From NCBI GenBank assembly GCA_902602135.1, contig CACKQA010000001.1, positions 1 through 56,748 on the forward strand: 56,748 bases of DNA, given 5' to 3'. Shown piece by piece: positions 87 to 33,032 of this stretch. Each line of letters opens with the position of its first letter. Position 1 is the first letter of the stretch. The notes beneath the pieces are model-generated. The model saw nothing but the letters and a program-made list of their open reading frames with translations, had not been told where the DNA came from and did not search any database. The DNA is from an uncultured Alphaproteobacteria bacterium (lineage in GTDB: Bacteria; Pseudomonadota; Alphaproteobacteria; HIMB59; GCA-002718135). The position numbers were made by a program, and so were the translations under genes.

Positions 87-500
87 TTAGTTTTTTAATT
101 TGCAATTTTCACACAAACCAAAAATTTCAAGACAGTGCTTATTATATTTAAAATTATTTTTTTCAGCTTGTTTAGAAAAATAAGAAAATAAATTGTTTCC
201 AATTAATTCAGTAACATTATCGCATTTTTCACAAATTAAAAAAGATGTAGAAGTTTTTGCATTACATCCTTCATGTTTACAAGCAACGTAAGAATTTCTA
301 CTTTCTATTTTATGAACTTTTCCAATTTCAATCAATTTATCGAGTGCTCTGTAAACTTGCAGAGGAGATTTTATTCCCTTTTTTTGTATATCATAAAGAA
401 TTGTATACGCCTTCATCGGTTCAGAAGAGTTTTCTAAAACTCCAAGAACTGTTTTTTGATTCTTAGTTAAATTTTCTGATTCTAATGCCATAAATCTCAA
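87..500 (-). CDS. zur: Fur-family metalloregulator, probable zinc uptake regulator Zur
   Basis: 137 aa with an N-terminal winged-helix-like region and paired CxxC motifs (CEKC, CENC) typical of the Fur/Zur structural Zn site. It lies 26 nt downstream of znuB on the same strand. Confidence 0.75.
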   Translation of the reverse strand: MRFMALESENLTKNQKTVLGVLENSSEPMKAYTILYDIQKKGIKSPLQVYRALDKLIEIGKVHKIESRNSYVACKHEGCNAKTSTSFLICEKCDNVTELIGNNLFSYFSKQAEKNNFKYNKHCLEIFGLCENCKLKN

Positions 501-526
501 TTACCAAATTGTTTTCATTTTTGCAA

Positions 527-1318
527 CTAACCTCTTAACTCTAATGGAATTAGAGAAATGATAAATAATATCAGAGCTATAACAATAATTGAGGGTCCTG
601 AAGAAGTATTCAATTCCAAAGAGGTAAATAAGCCAATTGTGACAGATAAAATACCAATTAATATAGCTACAAATACCATTTGTTTTGGATTGTTAGTTAT
701 ATTTCTTGATGCGGCAGCCGGTATTATAAGTAGACCAGTTATTAAAAGAGTTCCAATCATTTTTATAGACAATGCAATAACTCCAGCAAGAAGAAGGGTA
801 AAGATCATATTATATATGTTCGGTTTCATTCCTTCTGCTGAAGCTAGATCATAATTAACTGTAGCAGAAAATAATGATTTCCAAATAAAATACAAAATTC
901 CTAAAATTATAAAACCACCAATCCAAACTAAGGCAATGTCTTGAAGAGTTACTGCTAAGATATCGCCAAAAAGTAATCCCATAATATCAAAACGAATACT
1001 TGATAAAAAACCCATTAAAACCAAACCAATTGCAAGAGTGGAGTGAGCTAATAATCCAAGTAATGAATCACCAGCTAATCTAGTCCTCTTTTGTAAGTTG
1101 AGAAGAAGTAGAGCGATAACTGCAGATATTACAAATACGGAAAAGGCAATATTTAAACTAAAGGCATAAGCTAAAGTTACTCCTAACAAGGCAGAGTGAG
1201 CTAAAGTATCACCAAAATAAGACAGTCTCCTCCAAATTACTAAGCAACCTAGCGGCCCTGTAATTATTGCAATACCGATACCAGCAACTAATGCTCTAGT
1301 AAAAAAATCATCTAACAT
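527..1318 (-). CDS. znuB: Zinc ABC transporter permease (ABC-3 family)
   Basis: 263 aa polytopic membrane protein of ZnuB/TroC size. It shares nt 1318 with the znuC stop and has znuC/znuA/zur context. Confidence 0.85.
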   Translation of the reverse strand: MLDDFFTRALVAGIGIAIITGPLGCLVIWRRLSYFGDTLAHSALLGVTLAYAFSLNIAFSVFVISAVIALLLLNLQKRTRLAGDSLLGLLAHSTLAIGLVLMGFLSSIRFDIMGLLFGDILAVTLQDIALVWIGGFIILGILYFIWKSLFSATVNYDLASAEGMKPNIYNMIFTLLLAGVIALSIKMIGTLLITGLLIIPAAASRNITNNPKQMVFVAILIGILSVTIGLFTSLELNTSSGPSIIVIALILFIISLIPLELRG

Positions 1319-2058
1319 TAACTTGATACACTTCCGTCAGAAGCATGTGTGTGATCATGATCGTGCTGATAATATGTTAAAGTTTTCGATCTATGCTCAC
1401 CAAATAATTCTATATAAGCTTTATCTTTTATAACCGAACTTGGTTTTCCTGAACAACAGATATGTCCATTTAAACAAACTACATGATCTGTTGCAGTCAT
1501 TACAAAATGCAAGTCATGGGAGACTAATAAAATTCCACAATTTAGGTTAGCTGAAATATTTTTTATAATATTATAAAGGTCAATTTCTCCATTAAAATCA
1601 ACTCCCTGCACAGGTTCATCTAAAACTAGTAATTCTGGTTTTTTTGCAATAGCTCTCGCTAGAAGGACACGTTGAAATTCGCCACCAGATAGACCATGTA
1701 TTTGCTCCTTGAAAAGTTTTTCTACACCAGTTTGATTTAAGGATTCAATAATTTCATTATTGCTGAGATTATTGGTTAATCGCATAAAATCTACAACACG
1801 TAATGGCATAGTCCAATCGATATTAATTTTCTGAGGAACATATGCAATTTTATTTGTATACCGCTTCAATGAACCTTCATCAGGTTCAAGAATATTAAGT
1901 ACCATTTTAGCTGTTGTAGTTTTTCCAGAACCATTGGGTCCAATTAGGGTAACTATTTGACCACTTTTTACCTCAAGAGATACACCTCTTATTAACCATT
2001 TTGGTGACTTATAAATACCTGCGTTCTCTAAACTTACCAATAAATTATTTTTACTCAT
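1318..2058 (-). CDS. znuC: Zinc ABC transporter ATP-binding protein
   Basis: Walker A GPNGSGKTT, signature LSGGEFQR and Walker B LLVLDEP. It has a His-rich C-terminal tail (HDHDHTH). Confidence 0.9.
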   Translation of the reverse strand: MSKNNLLVSLENAGIYKSPKWLIRGVSLEVKSGQIVTLIGPNGSGKTTTAKMVLNILEPDEGSLKRYTNKIAYVPQKINIDWTMPLRVVDFMRLTNNLSNNEIIESLNQTGVEKLFKEQIHGLSGGEFQRVLLARAIAKKPELLVLDEPVQGVDFNGEIDLYNIIKNISANLNCGILLVSHDLHFVMTATDHVVCLNGHICCSGKPSSVIKDKAYIELFGEHRSKTLTYYQHDHDHTHASDGSVSS

Positions 2059-2078: not shown

Positions 2079-2100
2079 ATGTAATATTATAACATTACAT
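2079..2100. promoter_or_regulatory. Candidate Zur box in the znuC / znuA divergent promoter
   Basis: The sequence is ATGTAATATTATAACATTACAT. Its core GTAATATTATAACATTAC (2081-2098) is an inverted repeat with one mismatched pair. It lies 23 nt from the znuC start and 38 nt from the znuA start, and it resembles the AT-rich palindromic Zur operators described for alphaproteobacteria. Confidence 0.7.
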
Positions 2101-2135: not shown

Positions 2136-3617
2136 ATGAAACAAACGAACTTTTTTCTACATATTTCTATGATTATTTTGTTTTCAGGAATTCTTGTTGC
2201 AACTGCATCTGCTAGAGCAGAGCTAAAAGTTGTTACCACAATTAAACCACTACATTCATTGATTTCAAATGTTATGGATGGAGTAGGTGAACCTGGACTT
2301 ATAATTGATGGAAGTATATCACCACACAGTTTTACAATGAAACCTTCTCATGCGAAAATGCTTGAGGAAGCAGATGTCATTTTTTGGATTGGAGAGGGTA
2401 TTGAAACATCAATGGAAGAACCCCTAGACTCAATTGCAAAGGATGCAGAAGTAATTGAATTTATGGAACTTGATTCAATTGCTAAATTAAAATTTAGAGA
2501 AGAATCAATTTTTGGTGATCATGACGATCATGATGACCACGACGACCACGACGATCATGATGACCATGACGATCATGATGATCATGATGACCACGATGAT
2601 CATGATGACCACGACGACCACGACGATCATGATGACCACGATGATCATGATGACCACGACGATCACGCACACGGTGCACATGCTTTTGAATGGGCAGGAT
2701 TATTTGATCTAAAAGCGGGAACATATAAGTGGTCTGCTGCTAAAGTTGATGGCGATTATGCTGACCCTGCTATGAAGTTAGTATTACTAGCGGCTGATGA
2801 TATTGAAGCAGTTGAGGAAACGGCTGAAGAACTTTTAGAAAGTAAAACTTCCGCAAAAAAAACAAATGGTGGAACTCTTGTTGCTAAGGAGATTGCATAC
2901 TCTTTAAATTTTGATGATTCTCAAAATATGACTGTGTTTACAGTTGAAATAGCTGAGAATGGAAAATATGCTTTCTTCACAGAGCATATGCCATTTGAGT
3001 TTGAAGCAAATGAACATTTCTTCAAAGATACCTCTGGTGCAGATATAGAACCAATTGCTCAAGAACCAGAAATGGATGGTCACGATCATCATGATCATCA
3101 CGGCCATGCACACGGTGAATTTGATGCTCACATTTGGCTAGATCCAATGAATGCTAAAGAAATGGTTCATGAAATAGCTCATGAGTTAGGTGATTTAGAT
3201 CCTGCCAATAAAGAGAAATATGAAGCAAATGCTGAAGCAACAATTAAAGCTTTGGATCAGCTTATTAATGATGTTGGTACAGATATTAATTCTGATGCAA
3301 AATTTGTTGTCTTCCATGACGCCTACCAATACTTTGAAGAAAGATTTGGTGTAAGAGCAGCAGGAGCATTAACATTGAATACTGATGTTTTACCTGCTGC
3401 GAAGCAAATAGCTGATATTCAGGATGTGATTAAGGATAAGGGAATAAAATGTATTTTCTCTGAACCTCAATTTAATCCAAAGATTATTACAACAATAGCT
3501 GAGGATATGAATATCAAAACAGGAGTTTTTGATCCTTTAGGTGCTAACATCGATGCTGGTAAGTCACTTTACTTTACGTTGATTAGTAATCTCGGGGACG
3601 AGCTTAAAGGCTGTTAA
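2136..3617 (+). CDS. znuA: Periplasmic zinc-binding protein ZnuA (cluster A-I SBP) with a giant His/Asp-rich insertion
   Basis: Signal peptide (..VATASARA). ZnuA-type ligand contexts are SPHSF, DAHIWLDP and VVFHDAYQYF. At 493 aa it exceeds the roughly 310 aa typical of the family. The extra length sits where the ZnuA His-rich loop normally lies. Confidence 0.9.
   Translation: MKQTNFFLHISMIILFSGILVATASARAELKVVTTIKPLHSLISNVMDGVGEPGLIIDGSISPHSFTMKPSHAKMLEEADVIFWIGEGIETSMEEPLDSIAKDAEVIEFMELDSIAKLKFREESIFGDHDDHDDHDDHDDHDDHDDHDDHDDHDDHDDHDDHDDHDDHDDHDDHDDHAHGAHAFEWAGLFDLKAGTYKWSAAKVDGDYADPAMKLVLLAADDIEAVEETAEELLESKTSAKKTNGGTLVAKEIAYSLNFDDSQNMTVFTVEIAENGKYAFFTEHMPFEFEANEHFFKDTSGADIEPIAQEPEMDGHDHHDHHGHAHGEFDAHIWLDPMNAKEMVHEIAHELGDLDPANKEKYEANAEATIKALDQLINDVGTDINSDAKFVVFHDAYQYFEERFGVRAAGALTLNTDVLPAAKQIADIQDVIKDKGIKCIFSEPQFNPKIITTIAEDMNIKTGVFDPLGANIDAGKSLYFTLISNLGDELKGC
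2517..2666 (+). repeat. In-frame (GAY-CAY-GAY)n codon repeat encoding (DHD)16-DH
   Basis: I counted the codons directly: 16 DHD units plus DH, 50 residues in all. Units 9-11 and 14-16 are identical 27-nt blocks, and units 3-5 equal units 11-13. GAT/GAC and CAT/CAC are interleaved. Confidence 0.95.
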
Positions 3618-3688: not shown

Positions 3689-4660
3689 ATGGAAAATACT
3701 TCTCAGGTTCCAGTTACGGTCTTAACAGGGTTTCTTGGAGCTGGAAAAACAACGCTCTTAAATCGAATTTTAACTGAACAGCATGGACGGAAATACGCTG
3801 TCATAGTTAATGAATTTGGTGAGCAAGGTATTGATAATGATCTTGTTGTTGATGCTGATGAAGAAGTATTTGAAATGAACAACGGGTGCATTTGTTGCAC
3901 TGTTAGAGGTGATTTAATTAGAATTCTTAGTGGTTTAATGAAACGTGCTGATAAACTAGATGCAATTATAGTTGAAACAACTGGCTTAGCTGATCCAGCC
4001 CCAGTTGCGCAGACATTTTTTGTTGATCAAGATGTTGCTGATAGAACAAAACTAGATGCAATTGTTACAGTTGCCGATGCTGTTCATTTAAGTTCTCAAT
4101 TAGTAGATCATCATGAAGCAGAAGAACAAATTGCTTTTGCTGATGTAATTTTACTAAATAAAGTTGAACTTGTTGAAGATAATGACATTGTGAAAGTTAA
4201 TGATCGTATTAGAAAAATTAACCCTTTTGCAAAGATTATTAAAACAACACGTTGTGATGCACCTCTTGATGAAATCGTAGGCTTAAATGCATTTAGTCTA
4301 GATAGAGTATTAGATATTGAACCTGACTTTCTTGAATCAGATCATGATCATGAACATGATGATGATGTTACTAGTCTATCCTTTGTATCTGATACACCAT
4401 TAGATATGGATAAGTTTCAAGATTGGTTTGGAAATTTACTGAGGACTAAGGGTCAGGATATTCTTCGATCAAAAGGAATTTTGAACTTTAAAGGTGAAGA
4501 AGAGCGATATGTATTTCAAGGAGTGCATATGCTTATGGATGCTTCACCAATGGGACCTTGGCCTAAAGGAAAAGATAGAAGTTCTCGAGTAGTATTTATT
4601 GGTCGTGATCTTGATAATATGAATCTTAAGGAAGGCTTTGAAAATTGTAAATCAGCATGA
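3689..4660 (+). CDS. COG0523-family (CobW/YjiA/ZigA-like) metallochaperone GTPase
   Basis: P-loop GFLGAGKTT, GCICCT (CxCC) metal motif and a His/Asp stretch DHDHEHDDD before the C-terminal domain. It is located directly after znuA. Confidence 0.85.
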   Translation: MENTSQVPVTVLTGFLGAGKTTLLNRILTEQHGRKYAVIVNEFGEQGIDNDLVVDADEEVFEMNNGCICCTVRGDLIRILSGLMKRADKLDAIIVETTGLADPAPVAQTFFVDQDVADRTKLDAIVTVADAVHLSSQLVDHHEAEEQIAFADVILLNKVELVEDNDIVKVNDRIRKINPFAKIIKTTRCDAPLDEIVGLNAFSLDRVLDIEPDFLESDHDHEHDDDVTSLSFVSDTPLDMDKFQDWFGNLLRTKGQDILRSKGILNFKGEEERYVFQGVHMLMDASPMGPWPKGKDRSSRVVFIGRDLDNMNLKEGFENCKSA

Positions 4661-5694
4661 ACGCTGATTTAGAAAAACTTCAAGAATCAAATAAAACTGA
4701 ACTTGAAAGAAGAGGTTCAATTTTTAATATTGGAGCCCCAGCTACAGAAGCGGTTACAATTAGTGATCAAATAGCGGTAGGATTTGGAGACGGCACTGTA
4801 AGATTTTTTCAATCTGGATCTGATCCTAAAACTGTTAAAGCACATAAGGGTGTAGTGTTGAGTATGACAAATTATGAAGATCATGTCTTAACGGGAGGAG
4901 ACGATGGACGTTTTCTAAAAATATCATCTGATGGAAATATTGAAGAAATTTTTAATTTTGGTTCAAAGTGGGTTGACTGTGTAGCTTCCCACAAAGATAC
5001 TAAAGTTTGTTCATCAGGAAAGACTGTTTATATTTGGACAAAAAACAAAGATAAACCTCAAACTTTAGAGCATCAAAGTACTGTTGCTGGATTAGCATTT
5101 GATAATAAAGGTAAGCGTCTTGCGGTCTCAAGATATGGTGGAGTAACAGTGTGGAAACTTAATAATAATAAATGGACAGCATCAAATTTTACCTGGAAAG
5201 GATCGCATGGAACTGTAACGTTTAGTCCAGATACAAAATATATTGTAACTGCAATGCAAGAAAATCAAATTCATGGTTGGCGCATAAACGATAAAGCGGA
5301 TTTAGCAATGAGAGGTTATCCATCAAAAATTAAAAGTTTCACTTGGGTTGGAGATACACCGTATTTGGTAACATCTGGATCCAGTGATGCAGTTTGCTGG
5401 CCATTTGATGGTAAAGAAGGACCAATGGGGAGAAAGCCAATTGTTGTTGCAAACGGTGGTAAAGAACTTGCAACATTTGTTAAAGCACTTAATGGAGAAA
5501 AAGCTGTTTTCACCGGTTTTACAGATGGGTCAGTTTTATTAGCAGAAATTGATGAAAGTAAAAAACCAATTATGATTAGAAGTTCAACAGGTTCGGAAGT
5601 TTCAACAATAGCGATATCTAGTGATAATTCACAAATATTAATTGGTGATATGAAAGGTTCTATTCTTTTATCATCTTTATGGGCAGACAATTAA
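4657..5694 (+). CDS. WD40 / beta-propeller repeat protein
   Basis: 345 aa with recurring blade-like segments (GDGTVRFF, GGDDGRFL, GVTVWK, IHGWR, GSSDAVCW, TDGSVLL, GDMKGSILL). Its ATG overlaps the upstream stop (ATGA at 4657-4660). Confidence 0.7.
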   Translation: MNADLEKLQESNKTELERRGSIFNIGAPATEAVTISDQIAVGFGDGTVRFFQSGSDPKTVKAHKGVVLSMTNYEDHVLTGGDDGRFLKISSDGNIEEIFNFGSKWVDCVASHKDTKVCSSGKTVYIWTKNKDKPQTLEHQSTVAGLAFDNKGKRLAVSRYGGVTVWKLNNNKWTASNFTWKGSHGTVTFSPDTKYIVTAMQENQIHGWRINDKADLAMRGYPSKIKSFTWVGDTPYLVTSGSSDAVCWPFDGKEGPMGRKPIVVANGGKELATFVKALNGEKAVFTGFTDGSVLLAEIDESKKPIMIRSSTGSEVSTIAISSDNSQILIGDMKGSILLSSLWADN

Positions 5695-5704
5695 AGGAGA
5701 AAAT

Positions 5705-5959
5705 ATGTTTAATCGTAAAAATCAAAATGTTGAAAAAATAAGAAATCTCAAACATTTAATTTCCAAGAAATATAAATTATCAGAAAATACTTTAATAAGT
5801 ATTGCTGAACTCAGTTGTCATGAGCCCGATTGTCCACCAATTGAAACTGTTATTACTGCAAGAAATGAAGACGGATCAATTAAAAATTGGCGAGTAGCGA
5901 AATCAATAGAAGAAATAGAGGAGTCAGATATTAATAATCTAACAAACCACACTCATTAG
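5705..5959 (+). CDS. Small hypothetical protein with a CHEPDCPP motif
   Basis: 84 aa with a strong AAGGAGA Shine-Dalgarno at 5694-5700. It starts 10 nt after the WD40 gene. I recognise no family. Confidence 0.5.
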   Translation: MFNRKNQNVEKIRNLKHLISKKYKLSENTLISIAELSCHEPDCPPIETVITARNEDGSIKNWRVAKSIEEIEESDINNLTNHTH

Positions 5960-5979
5960 ATTGTTAAATTTAGAATAAA

Positions 5980-6390
5980 ATGTCAAAAAAACTAAAAGAA
6001 ATAACATTATCTGTTTGTCTCACATGTACCCTTAATAAAGATCAAAATAATAATAAACTTGCAGGAGAAAAACTTGCACAAAAATTAATTGATAAATTTA
6101 AAAATACAAAAAATGTAACTTTAAGAGGTGTAAATTGCATGAGTAATTGTAAACGTTCATGTATTATATCTTTTACCGCAGAAAATTGTTTTACCTATGT
6201 GTTTGGAGATATAGATACTGAAAATTCTGCTTATATTGATTCAATAGAGGAGCTTTTATTATCCTATAGCAAATCTGATGATGGTTTTTTGAGACGTAGA
6301 CATAGACCTGAAATATATAGATCTAATATAGTTGGTAGATTTCCTCCAATAAATAGTAAGTCAGATATTATTAGTAATTTAAAAAAGTAA
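5980..6390 (+). CDS. DUF1636-like putative metal-binding (thioredoxin-like fold) protein
   Basis: 136 aa with Cys pattern CLTC ... CMSNCKRSC. It resembles the DUF1636 proteins that accompany cobW-type genes in alphaproteobacteria. The family call is from memory of the motif pattern only. Confidence 0.5.
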   Translation: MSKKLKEITLSVCLTCTLNKDQNNNKLAGEKLAQKLIDKFKNTKNVTLRGVNCMSNCKRSCIISFTAENCFTYVFGDIDTENSAYIDSIEELLLSYSKSDDGFLRRRHRPEIYRSNIVGRFPPINSKSDIISNLKK

Positions 6391-6454
6391 AATTTTAAAA
6401 AGAATTAAATTATAATTATTTATTTCTGAATTTTGTTTAATTTAGAATTTATTA

Positions 6455-6538
6455 TTAACAGCAATCTCCCCCTTCACAAGCGCAACAACAACCACAGCTG
6501 CAACCACACTTTGGCGGGTTTGGATTTTGATTTTTCAT
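6455..6538 (-). CDS. Unannotated Cys-rich micro-ORF, MKNQNPNPPKCGCSCGCCCACEGGDCC (27 aa, 9 Cys); metallothionein-like candidate
   Basis: I hand-translated the minus strand from ATG (6538-6536) to TAA TAA. AGG lies 8-10 nt upstream. The coding core is a conspicuous G+C-rich patch in an AT-rich spacer. An alternative in-frame ATG at 6544 would add MI-. Confidence 0.5.
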   Translation of the reverse strand: MKNQNPNPPKCGCSCGCCCACEGGDCC

Positions 6539-6578
6539 AATCATACCTATATATTTTCTATAATAATTTAAAATACAA

Positions 6579-7436
6579 ATGAGAAAAGCATTAGAAATTA
6601 AACAATGTATGAAGACTTTCGAGGGTGACGGAATACCTGTAACGAGAGCTTTCCCTGTCCCTGGAATGAGAGAAAACGATCCATTCCTTCTTTTTGATCA
6701 TTTCGGCCCAATTAATTATGAACCGGGAGGTGCAACTGGTGTACCTGCCCATCCTCATTGTGGATTTGAGGCAATTACTTACATGCTTGGTGGTGAAGTA
6801 GAACACAGAGATTCATTTGGTGGACAAGCAGAAATTGAAACTGGTGATGTACAATGGATGACAACTGGATCAGGTTTAATTCACTCTGAATTAGTAACAG
6901 AAAAATTTAAGAAGAGTGGTGGTATCATGCAAGGTTTACAAATCTGGGTTAATCTTCCACGAAAAAATAAAAAAGTTAAACCTTGGTATCAACATATTAA
7001 GAAAGATACAATTCCAACGGTGAAAGAAAATAAAAATATTGAAATTAAAGTTCTTGTTGGTGAAGTAAAAGGAACAAAATCAAAAATTCAAACTTATTCA
7101 CCTGTATCTATATTTGATATTCAGTTTTCAAAACCTGATATTACAAAGTTTAATGTTGATAAAGAACAAAACTTAATGATTTATATTATTGATGGTCAGT
7201 TACAATTTTCTGATCTTGATAAAATTGCAAACAAAGGTGATATGATTTATTTTGATCAATTAAGTGATGAAATTCAACTTACATCAATATCTGAAAATGG
7301 ATCTTATTTAATTTTAGCAGGTAAACCTCTGCAAGAACCTGTTGCACGTTACGGTCCCTTTGTTACCAACACTGAGGGTGAAATTAAACAAGCTATGATG
7401 GACTATCAAGATGGCAAGATGGGAAGCTTAACTTAA
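6579..7436 (+). CDS. Pirin-family bicupin protein
   Basis: HPHCGFEAITYMLGGEVEHRDS metal-binding cupin motif, at 285 aa. Confidence 0.85.
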   Translation: MRKALEIKQCMKTFEGDGIPVTRAFPVPGMRENDPFLLFDHFGPINYEPGGATGVPAHPHCGFEAITYMLGGEVEHRDSFGGQAEIETGDVQWMTTGSGLIHSELVTEKFKKSGGIMQGLQIWVNLPRKNKKVKPWYQHIKKDTIPTVKENKNIEIKVLVGEVKGTKSKIQTYSPVSIFDIQFSKPDITKFNVDKEQNLMIYIIDGQLQFSDLDKIANKGDMIYFDQLSDEIQLTSISENGSYLILAGKPLQEPVARYGPFVTNTEGEIKQAMMDYQDGKMGSLT

Positions 7437-31712: not shown

Positions 31713-33032
31713 CTAAATTTTTTCTCCTGCTGGTTTTCCATATCCAACATTTTTTTTCCCATATCTTCTCACTCTAACGTTACATTGTTCAGCGTGACCA
31801 ATAAATCCTTCAAGGTGTGAAAGTCTAGATCCATATTCTCCAATAAGTGTAGCTGCTTCATCGGTTGTAATCTTTTGATAAGTGTGGGTTTTAATAAACT
31901 TACCAACCCACAAACCACCAGTATATCTTCCAGCTTTTTTGGTAGGAAGAGTATGGTTAGTACCTATCACTTTGTCACCGTTAGCAACATTGGTTCTAGC
32001 ACCTAAAAATAAAGCGCCATAAGATGTCATTTTTTCTAAAAACCAATCATCTTTTTTTGTCATAACTTGAACATGCTCTGAAGCTATTTCGTTTGCTTTA
32101 GATAGCATCTCCTCATAGGTATCACACAAAATCATTTCTCCATAATCTCTCCAGCTAGTACTTGCTGTTTCTTTAGTAGGTAAAATTTCTAAAATTCTAT
32201 CAATCTCTTTAAATGTTTCTTCTGCAAGTTTTCTTGAGTTTGTTATCATCACAGCAGGAGAATTATATCCATGTTCTGCTTGTCCTAATAAGTCTGTTGC
32301 ACATATTTCACCATCAACAGTTTCATCTGCAATAACCATTGTTTCAGTTGGACCAGCAAATAAATCGATACCAACTTTGCCATACAATTGTCTTTTTGCT
32401 TCAGCAACAAATGCATTGCCAGGTCCAACAAGCATATCAACAGGTTTAATCGTTTCTGTACCTATAGCCATAGCACCAACTCCTTGCATTCCTCCCAAAA
32501 CATAAATTTCGTGAGCACCGCCCATTTTCATTGCTGTAACAACAGCTGGATTTGGCTTACCTTTAAAAGGCGGTGTAGTAGCAACAATTCTTGGAACCCC
32601 AGCAACAGAGGCAGTAACAACTGACATATGAGCAGAAGCTACCATTGGGAATTTTCCGGCAGGTACATAACATCCAACTGCTTGCACTGGTATATTTTTA
32701 TGACCAAGTATCACACCCGGATGCGTTTCTACTTCTAATTCACTTAATGTTTTAAGTTGTGCTTCCGCAAATGATCGCACTTGTTTTTGAGCAAATTTAA
32801 TATCTTCTTTGTCATCATCAGAGACTTCACTCATTAATTGATTTATTTGCTCTTTACTTAATCGAAAACTATCTGGAGAATAGTTATCAAATTTTTGAGA
32901 TAACTCTCTAATATGTTCATCTCCTTCTGATTCAATTTTACTTAATGTTTCCTCAACAATTTTTTTTACTTTATCATTATCTTCAATTCTTTGTTTTTCA
33001 TCCAAACCTTTTTTTAAATATTCAATTGCCAT
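31713..33032 (-). CDS. Histidinol-dehydrogenase-family NAD-dependent alcohol-to-acid dehydrogenase (HisD paralog; HpsN-like candidate)
   Basis: 439 aa with a HisD-type core ([18 protein letters not shown]-terminal EGFIGHAEQ). It starts 2 nt after the upstream SnoaL-like gene. Confidence 0.75.

What the first reader, a model, noticed from the sequence alone, without database searches (positions are those of the whole stretch)
6455..6538. Unannotated 27-codon ORF that is one-third cysteine (metallothionein-like), parked next to the zinc locus
The minus strand reads ATG AAA AAT CAA AAT CCA AAC CCG CCA AAG TGT GGT TGC AGC TGT GGT TGT TGT TGC GCT TGT GAA GGG GGA GAT TGC TGT TAA TAA. This encodes MKNQNPNPPKCGCSCGCCCACEGGDCC, with 9 Cys in 27 residues. 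It is too short for the supplied ORF track. The coding core (ccccttcacaagcgcaacaacaaccacagctgcaaccacactttggcgggtttgg on the + strand) is an obvious G+C-rich island inside an AT-rich spacer. That is what constraint on Cys/Gly/Pro codons would produce and what a neutral spacer in this genome would not. AGG sits 8-10 nt upstream of the ATG. The ORF lies 64 nt beyond the end of the COG0523/WD40/DUF1636 operon and 40 nt from pirin, in a block otherwise devoted to Zn uptake and handling. In size and Cys density it resembles the smallest eukaryotic Cu-metallothioneins (about 25 aa, 7 Cys). It does not resemble the known bacterial SmtA/BmtA family, which is about 55 aa and contains His. A dedicated metal-buffering or storage peptide in a streamlined oligotroph would be new. 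A RiPP precursor or a redox peptide are alternative readings.
Basis: partly seen in the sequence, partly recalled or inferred. Interest (0 to 1): 0.85.

Follow-up and report, generated by a model that had tools for sequence, protein, structure and literature searches.

The report
Tiny cysteine-rich gene in SAR11 zinc locus
An unannotated 27-amino-acid, one-third-cysteine peptide gene is real and evolves like a normal protein-coding gene; in every copy found it sits at the end of the zinc-uptake gene cluster of SAR11-type ocean bacteria, so it is most likely a miniature metal-binding (metallothionein-like) peptide of a kind not yet catalogued.

Summary

It is a genuine, selected gene.
- Sixty related SAR11-type genomes fished with the neighbouring pirin gene, so unbiased for the peptide, all carry it.
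- pN/pS is 0.065 at pS 0.33.
- Diversity at codon positions 1+2 versus 3 (0.014/0.135) matches pirin (0.012/0.14). The flanking spacers are at 0.23-0.31.
- 118 of 120 complete copies are exactly 27 codons. The start codon varies only among ATG, GTG and TTG.

It matches no Pfam, NCBIfam, Rfam or PDB entry. It is essentially absent from 15 billion predicted proteins.

In 122 of 122 loci its downstream, convergent neighbour is a zinc-locus gene: znuA, or a COG0523-WD40-orf84(-DUF1636) cassette. The other flank switches between pirin and murJ, so the peptide travels with the zinc module. Some zinc loci lack it.

Where znuA lies directly downstream, the last codons form the 5' arm of an intrinsic terminator.

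No Zur box precedes it, and metal binding is untested.

Best reading: a minimal metallothionein-type Zn (or Cd/Cu) thiolate buffer, founding a new family.

The parts
6455..6538 (-). 27-codon peptide gene plus first stop codon (CDS 6538..6458, TAA 6457..6455; two further in-frame TAA at 6454..6449). Product MKNQNPNPPKCGCSCGCCCACEGGDCC. The window's copy is a rare variant (S16G, T20A) of the consensus MKNQNPNPPKCGCSCSCCCTCEGG[D/G]CC.
   Evidence: Conserved in 60 genomes and 64 metagenome contigs. pN/pS 0.065. Codon-position diversity equals that of pirin.
6546..6548 (-). AGG, a possible weak Shine-Dalgarno element 8-10 nt before the ATG. It is conserved in the pirin-context lineages and absent in the murJ-context lineages.
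   Evidence: The role is inferred, not shown.
6539..6578 (.). 40-nt AT-rich spacer between the divergent start codons of the peptide gene and pirin. It must hold or overlap both promoters. No Zur-box-like site is present.
   Evidence: Promoter positions are not established.
6391..6454 (.). 64-nt spacer between the convergent ends of DUF1636 and the peptide gene. In this window it holds no significant hairpin. In lineages where znuA is directly downstream, the equivalent position carries an intrinsic terminator whose 5' arm is the last codons of the peptide gene.
   Evidence: window z = +1.1; L082 -24.1 kcal/mol, z = -4.4, followed by a U-run. (hairpin in 55 of 56 znuA-adjacent copies, 0 of 66 cassette-adjacent copies).
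87..2058 (-). Zinc module, left arm: Zur-like Fur-family regulator (87-500), znuB (527-1318) and znuC (1318-2058).
2081..2098 (.). Zur box GTAATATTATAACATTAC in the znuC/znuA divergent promoter region. It is the only such site in the window.
   Evidence: The same position holds a box in related loci.
2136..3617 (+). znuA (493 aa) with a long (DHD)n His/Asp-rich loop. In many lineages it is the gene directly convergent with the peptide gene.
3689..6390 (+). Optional cassette between znuA and the peptide gene: COG0523 GTPase (3689-4660), WD40 protein (4657-5694), orf84 (5705-5959) and DUF1636 (5980-6390). It is present, partial or absent in different lineages, while the peptide gene stays.

Best explanation
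This is a real, independently transcribed and translated gene for a 27-residue cytoplasmic peptide. It belongs to the accessory zinc-acquisition module of SAR11-type bacteria (zur-znuBC / znuA-[COG0523-WD40-orf84-DUF1636] / peptide).

The peptide has two parts.
- The first ten residues (MKNQNPNPPK) are a hydrophilic, Pro/Asn-rich tail that probably has no fixed structure.
- The last 17 residues carry nine cysteines in CxCxCxCCCxC....CC spacing, with only Gly, Ser, Thr, Glu and Asp between them.

The most likely mechanism is that of a metallothionein. The thiolates wrap a small metal-thiolate cluster. Nine Cys is the number that holds three divalent ions in the beta-domain of animal metallothioneins. 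In this way the peptide would buffer, store or hand on the Zn(II) brought in by ZnuABC, and incidentally Cd/Cu(I), in a very small cell.

Shown here: the gene is real, under strong purifying selection at the amino-acid level, fixed in length, and physically tied to the zinc locus.

Inferred: translation in vivo, metal binding, stoichiometry, metal preference and the physiological role.
For: Coding and selection:
- In 60 genomes retrieved through the neighbouring pirin gene, and so unbiased for the peptide, 29 columns vary. Nineteen of them are third codon positions (binomial p = 4e-4).
- NG86 pN/pS is 0.065 at pS 0.33. Every other frame either has stops or has a ratio above 1.6, including the open antisense ORF.
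- Diversity at codon positions 1+2 / 3 is 0.014 / 0.135 in the peptide ORF and 0.012 / 0.14 in pirin. The spacers are at 0.23 and 0.31.
- 118 of 120 complete copies are exactly 27 codons. All nine Cys are retained in 59 of the 60 peptide-unbiased genomes and in 116 of 120 copies overall; Cys 11-21 in the metagenome copies were fixed by the search pattern.
- Gly12, Ser14, Ser16, Thr20 and Glu22 are also near-invariant, but in the metagenome set the search pattern imposed them. In the pirin-fished genomes alone, Gly12 and Ser14 are invariant, Ser16 and Glu22 vary in 1 of 60 and Thr20 in 2 of 60.
- The start codon varies only among ATG (113), GTG (3) and TTG (3), with one exception.

Own transcription unit:
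- Where znuA is directly downstream, a strong hairpin (-24.1 kcal/mol, z = -4.4) followed by a U-run ends the unit on the peptide's strand.

Zinc linkage:
- The downstream neighbour is znuA (56), orf84 (47) or DUF1636 (19) in 122 of 122 loci.
- The upstream neighbour is pirin (77) or murJ (23).
- The 19 pirin loci that lack the peptide also lack the adjacent, inward-facing end of a zinc locus, apart from a few where that flank is cut off.

Metallothionein-type composition, read directly from the sequence:
- 33% Cys, with CxC, CC and CCC motifs.
- No aromatic residue, no His, no hydrophobic segment, no signal peptide.

Precedent:
- In the oligotrophic marine Synechococcus WH8102, a metallothionein (BmtA) is part of the Zur-controlled zinc system and allows safe zinc accumulation (PMC9337993).
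- znuA is a patchy, accessory trait in SAR11 (PMC4771312).
Against: - There is no experimental or expression evidence of any kind.
- No sequence similarity to any metallothionein family.
- No Zur-box-like site lies within 200 nt upstream. The best PWM score is 3 bits or less, against mostly 26 bits or more for the znuC/znuA boxes. No link to the zinc regulator is therefore shown.
- Some zinc loci in the same znuA-murJ setting lack the gene (L145, L149), as do more distant ZnuA lineages (L146-L148, L152). It is dispensable for zinc uptake.
- Nine Cys packed into 17 residues, including a CCC run, may be sterically awkward for a classical M3S9 cluster.
- Physical linkage within one bacterial order is partly phylogenetic inertia.
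Confidence: 0.55

Rival explanations
1. A small protein subunit, cofactor or thiol peptide with a non-metallothionein role. Examples: a redox or Fe-S-binding peptide, or a micro-protein that binds and modulates Zur, the ZnuBC permease or another cytoplasmic zinc-handling protein.
For: It rests on the same evidence for a translated, selected product and for zinc-locus linkage. Near-invariance of the non-Cys residues Gly12, Ser14, Ser16, Thr20 and Glu22 could reflect a specific interface rather than generic metal chelation.
Against: There is no constant protein partner other than zur-znuABC. The COG0523/WD40/orf84/DUF1636 genes come and go. There is no ferredoxin-type CxxCxxCxxxC spacing. Nine cysteines in 17 residues are far more than an interface needs.
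Confidence: 0.17
2. Primarily a regulatory mini-ORF. Its translation is rich in Cys codons and contains a Pro-Pro motif. Translation would gate the terminator that overlaps its last codons, and so control how much transcription runs antisense into the convergent znuA/cassette genes. The peptide itself would be secondary.
For: In 55 of 56 copies directly convergent with znuA, the last seven codons (GGT GGA GGG TGT TGT TAG) form the 5' arm of the terminator. Residue 25 is then always Gly encoded by GGG. The gene is convergent with the zinc operon in all loci.
Against: About half of all copies, including the window's, have no such hairpin yet keep the peptide equally intact. Non-Cys residues are conserved too, unlike typical attenuator leader peptides. 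No co-oriented downstream gene exists.
Confidence: 0.12
3. Precursor of a ribosomally made, post-translationally modified peptide. Examples: an azol(in)e- or thioether-containing metallophore, with a short leader (MKNQNPNPPK) and a Cys/Ser/Thr/Gly-rich core.
For: The alternating Cys/Ser/Thr/Gly core resembles the cores of linear azole peptides and other Cys-rich RiPP precursors (general knowledge, not tested). The size is typical of precursors.
Against: None of 125 loci has a cyclodehydratase, radical-SAM, lanthipeptide-synthetase or export gene as a constant neighbour. The neighbours are znuA or the cassette on one side and pirin or murJ on the other. A 10-residue leader is very short. No RiPP precursor family matches.
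Confidence: 0.08
4. Not a gene. The G+C-rich island would be a conserved DNA or RNA element (promoter, terminator, binding site) or a chance ORF.
For: The N-terminal codons overlap a promoter-like match for pirin on the other strand. Part of the 3' end doubles as a terminator stem in some lineages.
Against: The substitution pattern is codon-periodic and matches that of a bona fide gene. The length is fixed at 27 codons while both spacers carry indels. There is no Rfam match. The element keeps its reading frame after relocation next to murJ.
Confidence: 0.03

Closest known systems
Fungal family-8 copper metallothioneins (e.g. Neurospora crassa Cu-MT, about 25 aa, 7 Cys)
   Same: Single-domain peptide of about 25-27 residues. 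Cys content is about 30%, with CxC motifs separated by Gly/Ser. There are no aromatic residues or His. Both contain the local motifs CGCS and GCSCS.
   Different: The fungal proteins are eukaryotic and bind Cu(I). Here there are 9 Cys including a CCC run, an N-terminal Pro/Asn tail and a zinc-uptake genomic context.
Beta-domain of animal metallothioneins (9 Cys, M(II)3Cys9 cluster)
   Same: It has the same number of cysteines. It shows what nine thiolates can do: bind three Zn/Cd or about six Cu(I).
   Different: The beta-domain spreads 9 Cys over about 30 residues and is fused to an alpha-domain. There is no sequence similarity. Cluster stoichiometry here is unknown.
Bacterial metallothioneins of the SmtA/BmtA family (Pfam PF02069)
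   Same: Bacterial cytoplasmic zinc buffer or store. In the oligotrophic marine Synechococcus WH8102, BmtA is part of the same homeostatic circuit as Zur and ZnuABC (PMC9337993).
   Different: SmtA/BmtA proteins are about 55 aa, have a zinc-finger-like fold and use His as well as Cys. The peptide gives no Pfam or NCBIfam hit. Its promoter has no Zur box, whereas bmtA in WH8102 has two.
Cys-rich RiPP precursors (linear azole peptides, methanobactin MbnA)
   Same: Short ORF with a hydrophilic N-terminal part followed by a Cys/Ser/Thr/Gly-rich C-terminal part. Some products bind metals.
   Different: No maturation or export genes accompany it in any of 125 loci. The putative leader is only 10 residues.
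Attenuator leader peptides
   Same: Very short ORF with a run of one amino acid's codons. A terminator overlaps its end in some lineages.
   Different: No co-oriented gene lies downstream. Half the copies have no terminator hairpin. Non-regulatory residues are conserved as well.

Membership tests
Metallothioneins (operational class: small, Cys-rich, metal-thiolate cluster proteins) | Low molecular mass (under about 10 kDa) | tested here: met
   27 aa, about 2.7 kDa. Fixed at 27 aa in 118 of 120 copies.
Metallothioneins (operational class) | Cys content of 15-35% arranged as CxC, CC or CxxC motifs, with aromatic residues and His absent or scarce | tested here: met
   9 of 27 residues are Cys (33%). 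The spacing is CxCxCxCCCxC(x4)CC. There are 0 aromatic residues and 0 His.
Metallothioneins (operational class) | High metal content bound through thiolate clusters (spectroscopic and stoichiometric evidence) | not testable with these tools
   Needs the peptide plus ESI-MS, ICP-MS or UV/CD titrations.
Metallothioneins (operational class) | Functional connection to metal homeostasis | tested here: inconclusive
   It is always adjacent to the zur-znuABC locus (122 of 122). But it has no Zur box of its own, no expression data exist, and it is absent from some zinc loci.
SmtA/BmtA bacterial metallothionein family (Pfam PF02069) | Match to the family profile (about 55 aa, Cys and His ligands, zinc-finger-like fold) | tested here: not met
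   No Pfam or NCBIfam hit at E up to 10. No His. Half the length.
Eukaryotic metallothionein sequence families (fungal family 8, vertebrate family 1) | Significant sequence similarity to family members | tested here: not met
   No Pfam hit. Pairwise BLASTP E = 0.12-0.13. No hit in PDB sequences. An exhaustive phmmer search of 1.84 billion representatives returns only copies of the same peptide.
RiPP precursor peptides | Co-located maturation enzyme(s) and usually an exporter or protease | tested here: not met
   The neighbours are znuA or the COG0523 cassette on one side and pirin or murJ on the other, in all loci.
Transcription-attenuation leader peptides | A co-oriented structural gene downstream whose expression the leader controls | tested here: not met
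   The downstream gene is always convergent.
Zur regulon members | Zur box in the promoter | tested here: not met
   The consensus GTAATNTTATAANATTAC with up to 3 mismatches occurs only in the znuC/znuA spacer. The PWM best score upstream of the peptide is 3 bits or less.
Protein-coding genes under purifying selection | Codon-periodic substitution, pN/pS far below 1, preserved frame and length | tested here: met
   pN/pS 0.065. Variable columns by codon position are 6/4/19. Diversity matches the neighbouring pirin gene.

The most novel reading that the evidence does not exclude
A dual-coded element. The smallest bacterial metallothionein-type peptide known would found a SAR11-restricted family. 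Its last codons would also be the 5' arm of the terminator shared with the convergent znuA. Translation of a Cys-codon-dense message would then gate read-through antisense to the zinc-uptake operon, tying zinc import to cysteine and zinc status in an organism that cannot reduce sulfate. Peptide-free relatives keep only a simple hairpin at the same spot (L145, L149), so the gene may have arisen de novo around the znuA terminator.
Probability: 0.1. Interest if true: 0.85.

Novelty: new variant of a known kind. Interest (0 to 1): 0.7.

Why it matters
SAR11 is the most abundant bacterial group in the surface ocean, where zinc is extremely scarce. Its genome is so streamlined that every retained gene is informative.

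Published surveys list ZnuABC and a Fur-family regulator as the only zinc-specific equipment in SAR11, and few metal-detoxification genes (PMC4771312, PMC4161860). They could not see an 84-nt gene that gene callers skip.

If this peptide is a zinc (or Cd/Cu) thiolate buffer, three things follow.
- It supplies the missing storage and buffering element of SAR11 zinc homeostasis.
- It adds a new, sequence-unrelated bacterial metallothionein family of minimal size.
- It gives a tractable synthetic 27-mer for testing how such cells hold zinc.

It is also a clear example of a strongly selected micro-gene that is invisible in a 15-billion-protein catalogue.

Tried and rejected
Family and database searches that gave nothing:
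- Pfam and NCBIfam scans of the 27- and 29-aa forms at E up to 10 found nothing.
- An Rfam scan of 6300-6700 gave only sub-threshold noise.
- An exact look-up of ten sequence variants in the 15-billion-protein collection found none.
I worked around this with an exhaustive phmmer of a 31-codon stretch and a profile of its hits. Only nine proteins came back. All are the same peptide, called by accident with spurious N-terminal extensions or a frameshift.
- PDB sequence search found nothing.
- Pairwise comparisons with N. crassa Cu-MT and human MT2 were not significant.
- The viral-contig scan with the core DNA pattern gave 0 hits.
- Literature searches on Pelagibacter + metallothionein, the peptide motif, SAR11 + zinc + COG0523, and COG0523/WD40/DUF1636 found no description of this gene.

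Hypotheses tested and rejected:
- A Zur box in the peptide promoter: none by consensus or by PWM.
- A terminator in the window itself: none.
- The antisense ORF 6433-6540(+): its wobble positions fall on the second codon position, and its pN/pS is 1.67.
- The upstream ATG at 6544 as the start: it is not conserved.

Not attempted:
- Structure prediction. A metal-free AlphaFold model of a 27-residue thiolate peptide would be uninformative.

Caveats:
- The metagenome set was retrieved with a DNA pattern that fixes CGCSC[S/G]CCC[T/A]C. Invariance of those residues in that set is imposed. Selection statistics therefore rest on the pirin-fished genome set and on the codons outside the pattern.

Full report
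**1. The observation**

The minus strand of window 6538..6458 encodes MKNQNPNPPKCGCSCGCCCACEGGDCC, 27 residues with 9 Cys. Three consecutive TAA codons follow at 6457-6449.

AGG lies 8-10 nt before the ATG. The gaps to DUF1636 (64 nt) and to pirin (40 nt) are as stated. The coding core is a 55% G+C island between spacers of 8-18% G+C.

- a Zur-like Fur-family gene, znuB and znuC on the minus strand;
- a perfect Zur box at 2081-2098;
- znuA, a COG0523 GTPase, a WD40 protein, an 84-aa ORF and DUF1636 on the plus strand;
- then the mini-ORF, convergent with that operon and divergent from pirin.

Among the 481 ORFs of 20-80 aa in the window it has the highest Cys fraction. None of 200 Markov simulations reached 9 Cys codons in such an ORF.

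**2. Is it a gene?**

I fished 80 loci from species-representative genomes with the pirin protein. This is blind to the peptide. All 60 loci whose pirin is 88% or more identical are single-cell or metagenome-assembled genomes of uncultured marine Alphaproteobacteria. The more distant hits are labelled Pelagibacteraceae. All 60 carry the ORF at the same place.

- Fifty-nine keep the reading frame intact, and 59 keep all nine Cys; the exceptions are L001, which has a 1-nt frameshift near the end, and L002, which has C11F.
- Of 29 variable columns, 6, 4 and 19 fall at codon positions 1, 2 and 3 (binomial p = 4e-4).
- Nei-Gojobori pN/pS is 0.065 at pS 0.33. In the Cys-rich part alone it is 0.054.
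- Every other frame on either strand has stops in all sequences or a ratio above 1.6. This includes the open antisense ORF 6433-6540.
- Nucleotide diversity at codon positions 1+2 and 3 is 0.014 and 0.135 in the mini-ORF. In the first 100 codons of pirin it is 0.012 and 0.14. The spacers on either side are at 0.23 and 0.31.
- The upstream ATG at 6544, used by the mechanical ORF finder, is not conserved. The second ATG is.

Across 120 complete copies from genomes and metagenomes:
- the start codon is ATG 113 times, GTG 3 times, TTG 3 times and ATA once;
- 118 copies are exactly 27 codons;
- three copies look defective: the L001 frameshift, a nonsense codon 4 in L126, and the ATA start in L099.

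The flanking spacers are full of indels.

In lineages where znuA is the immediate downstream gene, the ORF ends in a strong hairpin. In L082 it is -24.1 kcal/mol, with z = -4.4 against shuffles. A U-run follows on the peptide's strand, making a textbook intrinsic terminator.

Taken together, this behaves like an ordinary, independently transcribed protein-coding gene. I put that at about 0.95.

**3. Is it known?**

No.
- Pfam, NCBIfam, Rfam and PDB-sequence searches return nothing.
- Ten exact variants are absent from a 15-billion-protein collection.
- An exhaustive HMMER pass over 1.84 billion cluster representatives, plus a profile search of 5.8 billion proteins, recover nine entries in all. 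Each is this same peptide, called by accident with a spurious N-terminal extension read antisense to the upstream gene, or with L001's frameshift.
- No eukaryotic or bacterial metallothionein and no other Cys-rich protein reaches significance.
- Full-text literature searches found no description.

**4. Context is the informative part**

A degenerate DNA pattern for the Cys core retrieved 61 metagenome contigs. Three more came from the accidental protein calls. Together with the genomes this gives 125 loci.

The downstream, convergent neighbour is always a zinc-locus gene: znuA in 56, orf84 in 47 and DUF1636 in 19. That is 122 of the 122 loci in which the flank is visible.

The upstream, divergent neighbour is pirin in 77 and the lipid II flippase gene murJ in 23.

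So the peptide gene has kept its place at the 3' end of the zinc module through two kinds of change:
- a change of chromosomal setting;
- gain or loss of the COG0523-WD40-orf84(-DUF1636) cassette between it and znuA.

The 19 pirin loci without the peptide also lack the adjacent, inward-facing znuA end, apart from a few where that flank is cut off.

This fits published work that znuA with its Fur-family regulator is a patchy, accessory trait present in about half of SAR11 genomes (PMC4771312). The peptide is part of that accessory module.

It is not obligatory, however. Two contigs with the same znuA-murJ arrangement (L145, L149) have only a simple hairpin where the gene would be. ZnuA loci of more distant lineages (L146-L148, L152) have no Cys-rich ORF.

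**5. A dual constraint at the 3' end**

Residue 25 is Gly encoded by GGG in 55 of 56 copies that abut znuA. There, the codons GGT GGA GGG TGT TGT form the 5' arm of the terminator.

Where the cassette lies downstream there is no hairpin. Residue 25 is then Asp (GAT, 60 copies) or Gly encoded by GGT/GGA (6 copies). The window belongs to this hairpin-less class.

**6. Regulation**

The alphaproteobacterial-type Zur box occurs only in the znuC/znuA spacer of every locus. No match lies within 400 nt upstream of the peptide.

A PWM built from those boxes scores 3 bits or less in the 200 nt upstream of the peptide. The true boxes mostly score 26 bits or more, and the random-window 95th percentile is 2.5 bits.

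Direct Zur repression through a canonical box is therefore not supported. This is neutral for a storage or buffer role:
- a store should not be repressed when zinc is plentiful;
- in Synechococcus WH8102, Zur activates the metallothionein gene (PMC9337993);
- that paper cites Xanthomonas Zur as activating through a sequence distinct from its repressor box.

**7. What it most likely does**

The product has no hydrophobic segment, signal peptide, aromatic residue or His.

Its C-terminal 17 residues hold nine cysteines as CxCxCxCCCxC(x4)CC, separated only by Gly, Ser, Thr, Glu and Asp. These are the operational hallmarks of a metallothionein.

Nine Cys is the ligand count of the M(II)3Cys9 cluster of the animal beta-domain. 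This is general knowledge, not tested here.

Combined with the strict attachment to the zinc-uptake module, the best-supported mechanism is a minimal cytoplasmic metal-thiolate peptide. It would buffer, store or pass on the zinc imported by ZnuABC, and would incidentally sequester Cd or Cu(I).

The steps shown are gene reality, selection on the amino-acid sequence, and linkage. Metal binding, stoichiometry and physiology are inferred. I give this reading about 0.55.

**8. Rivals**

| Rival | Main point | Probability |
|---|---|---|
| Micro-protein partner or non-MT thiol peptide | Conserved non-Cys residues could mark an interface, but there is no constant partner beyond zur-znuABC | about 0.17 |
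| Regulatory mini-ORF | Translation would gate the overlapping terminator and antisense transcription into znuA. It is attractive where the hairpin exists, but half the copies lack it, non-Cys residues are conserved, and there is no co-oriented downstream gene | about 0.12 |
| RiPP precursor | The core composition fits, but no maturase or exporter is ever adjacent, and the leader is only 10 residues | about 0.08 |
| Not a gene | Contradicted by the codon-periodic substitution pattern | about 0.03 |

**9. Comparison with known families**

It works like, and meets the testable operational criteria of, a metallothionein.

It is not a member of the SmtA/BmtA family or of any eukaryotic metallothionein sequence family. 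Profile and pairwise tests were not met.

The nearest look-alikes in size and Cys density are the 25-aa fungal Cu-metallothioneins. The resemblance is compositional.

**10. Verdict**

If the function holds, this is a new, sequence-unrelated and unusually small bacterial metallothionein family, restricted to SAR11-type lineages. That makes it a new variant of a known kind. Interest 0.7.

Noticed in passing
window 2517-2665 (within znuA, 2136-3617): ZnuA carries a tandem (DHD)n array, about 17 copies of Asp-His-Asp (TRF periods 18/27/45). A second His-rich stretch (GHDHHDHHGHAHGE) follows. The protein is 493 aa, against about 310 for typical ZnuA. tblastn splits the gene at this loop in almost every related locus. 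Public gene calls are mostly N-terminal fragments, so the repeat varies in length between strains and breaks assemblies.
   Followed up: partly
window 3689-6390; loci L001-L144: The zinc locus exists in at least three architectures: znuA alone; znuA + COG0523-WD40-orf84; and the same plus DUF1636. It also sits in two chromosomal settings, next to pirin or next to murJ-trpS. It is a small flexible island within otherwise syntenic SAR11-type genomes.
   Followed up: yes
window 5705-5959 (+): orf84 is a conserved 84-aa protein with no Pfam or NCBIfam match. It has a CHEPDCPP motif and a C-terminal His-Thr-His. It always follows the WD40 gene in the COG0523 cassette and may be another small metal-handling protein.
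   Followed up: no
L082 1940-2005 and equivalent positions in 55 loci; window 6449-6475 is the hairpin-less counterpart: Codon 25 of the peptide co-varies with RNA structure. It is GGG (Gly) when the last codons form a terminator stem next to znuA. It is GAT (Asp) or GGT/GGA when the cassette is downstream and there is no hairpin.
   Followed up: yes
L145 6091-6301; L149 2023-2227: These contigs have the same znuA-murJ-trpS arrangement but no peptide gene. Only a short hairpin (TTCCACC-loop-GGTGGAA) occupies the slot. Its TTCCACC arm resembles the distal arm of the terminator in peptide-bearing relatives. This is either a loss or the ancestral state.
   Followed up: partly
L001 about 3880-3960 (AG-337-F02); protein P0008: The closest genome to the window (pirin 99% identical) has a 1-nt deletion in a G-run near the end of the peptide ORF. 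This gives a 47-aa product, and it is the only NCBI-sourced call among the nine accidental database entries for this gene. It is either a SAG sequencing error or a real pseudogene.
   Followed up: no
protein P0001 (65 aa, 1079-nt ENA contig): Its first 20 residues match the N-terminus of orf84. The rest is the antisense-pirin read-through into the peptide. The contig is probably chimeric, or it records a local rearrangement joining the orf84 start to the peptide's upstream region.
   Followed up: no
L058, L059, L063, L065 just upstream of pirin: In more distant lineages without the zinc locus, the gene ending just upstream of pirin encodes repeated NQPFCDG(S/A)H motifs, typical of CDGSH iron-sulfur domains.
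   Followed up: no
L146 6444-6860; L148 6587-6856; L152 5604-5855: In distant ZnuA lineages (context rplU-rpmA-obg), a second Fur-family gene and a solute-binding-protein gene follow znuA where SAR11-type loci have the peptide. A G+C-rich terminator (CCAGGGG...CCCCTGG followed by a T-run) follows znuA.
   Followed up: no
window 32560-32700 (-), inside the 439-aa gene at 31713-33032: This is the only other short ORF in the window with 9 Cys (36 aa). It lies out of frame inside a long gene. It appears to be a by-product of that gene's codon composition, not an independent candidate.
   Followed up: partly
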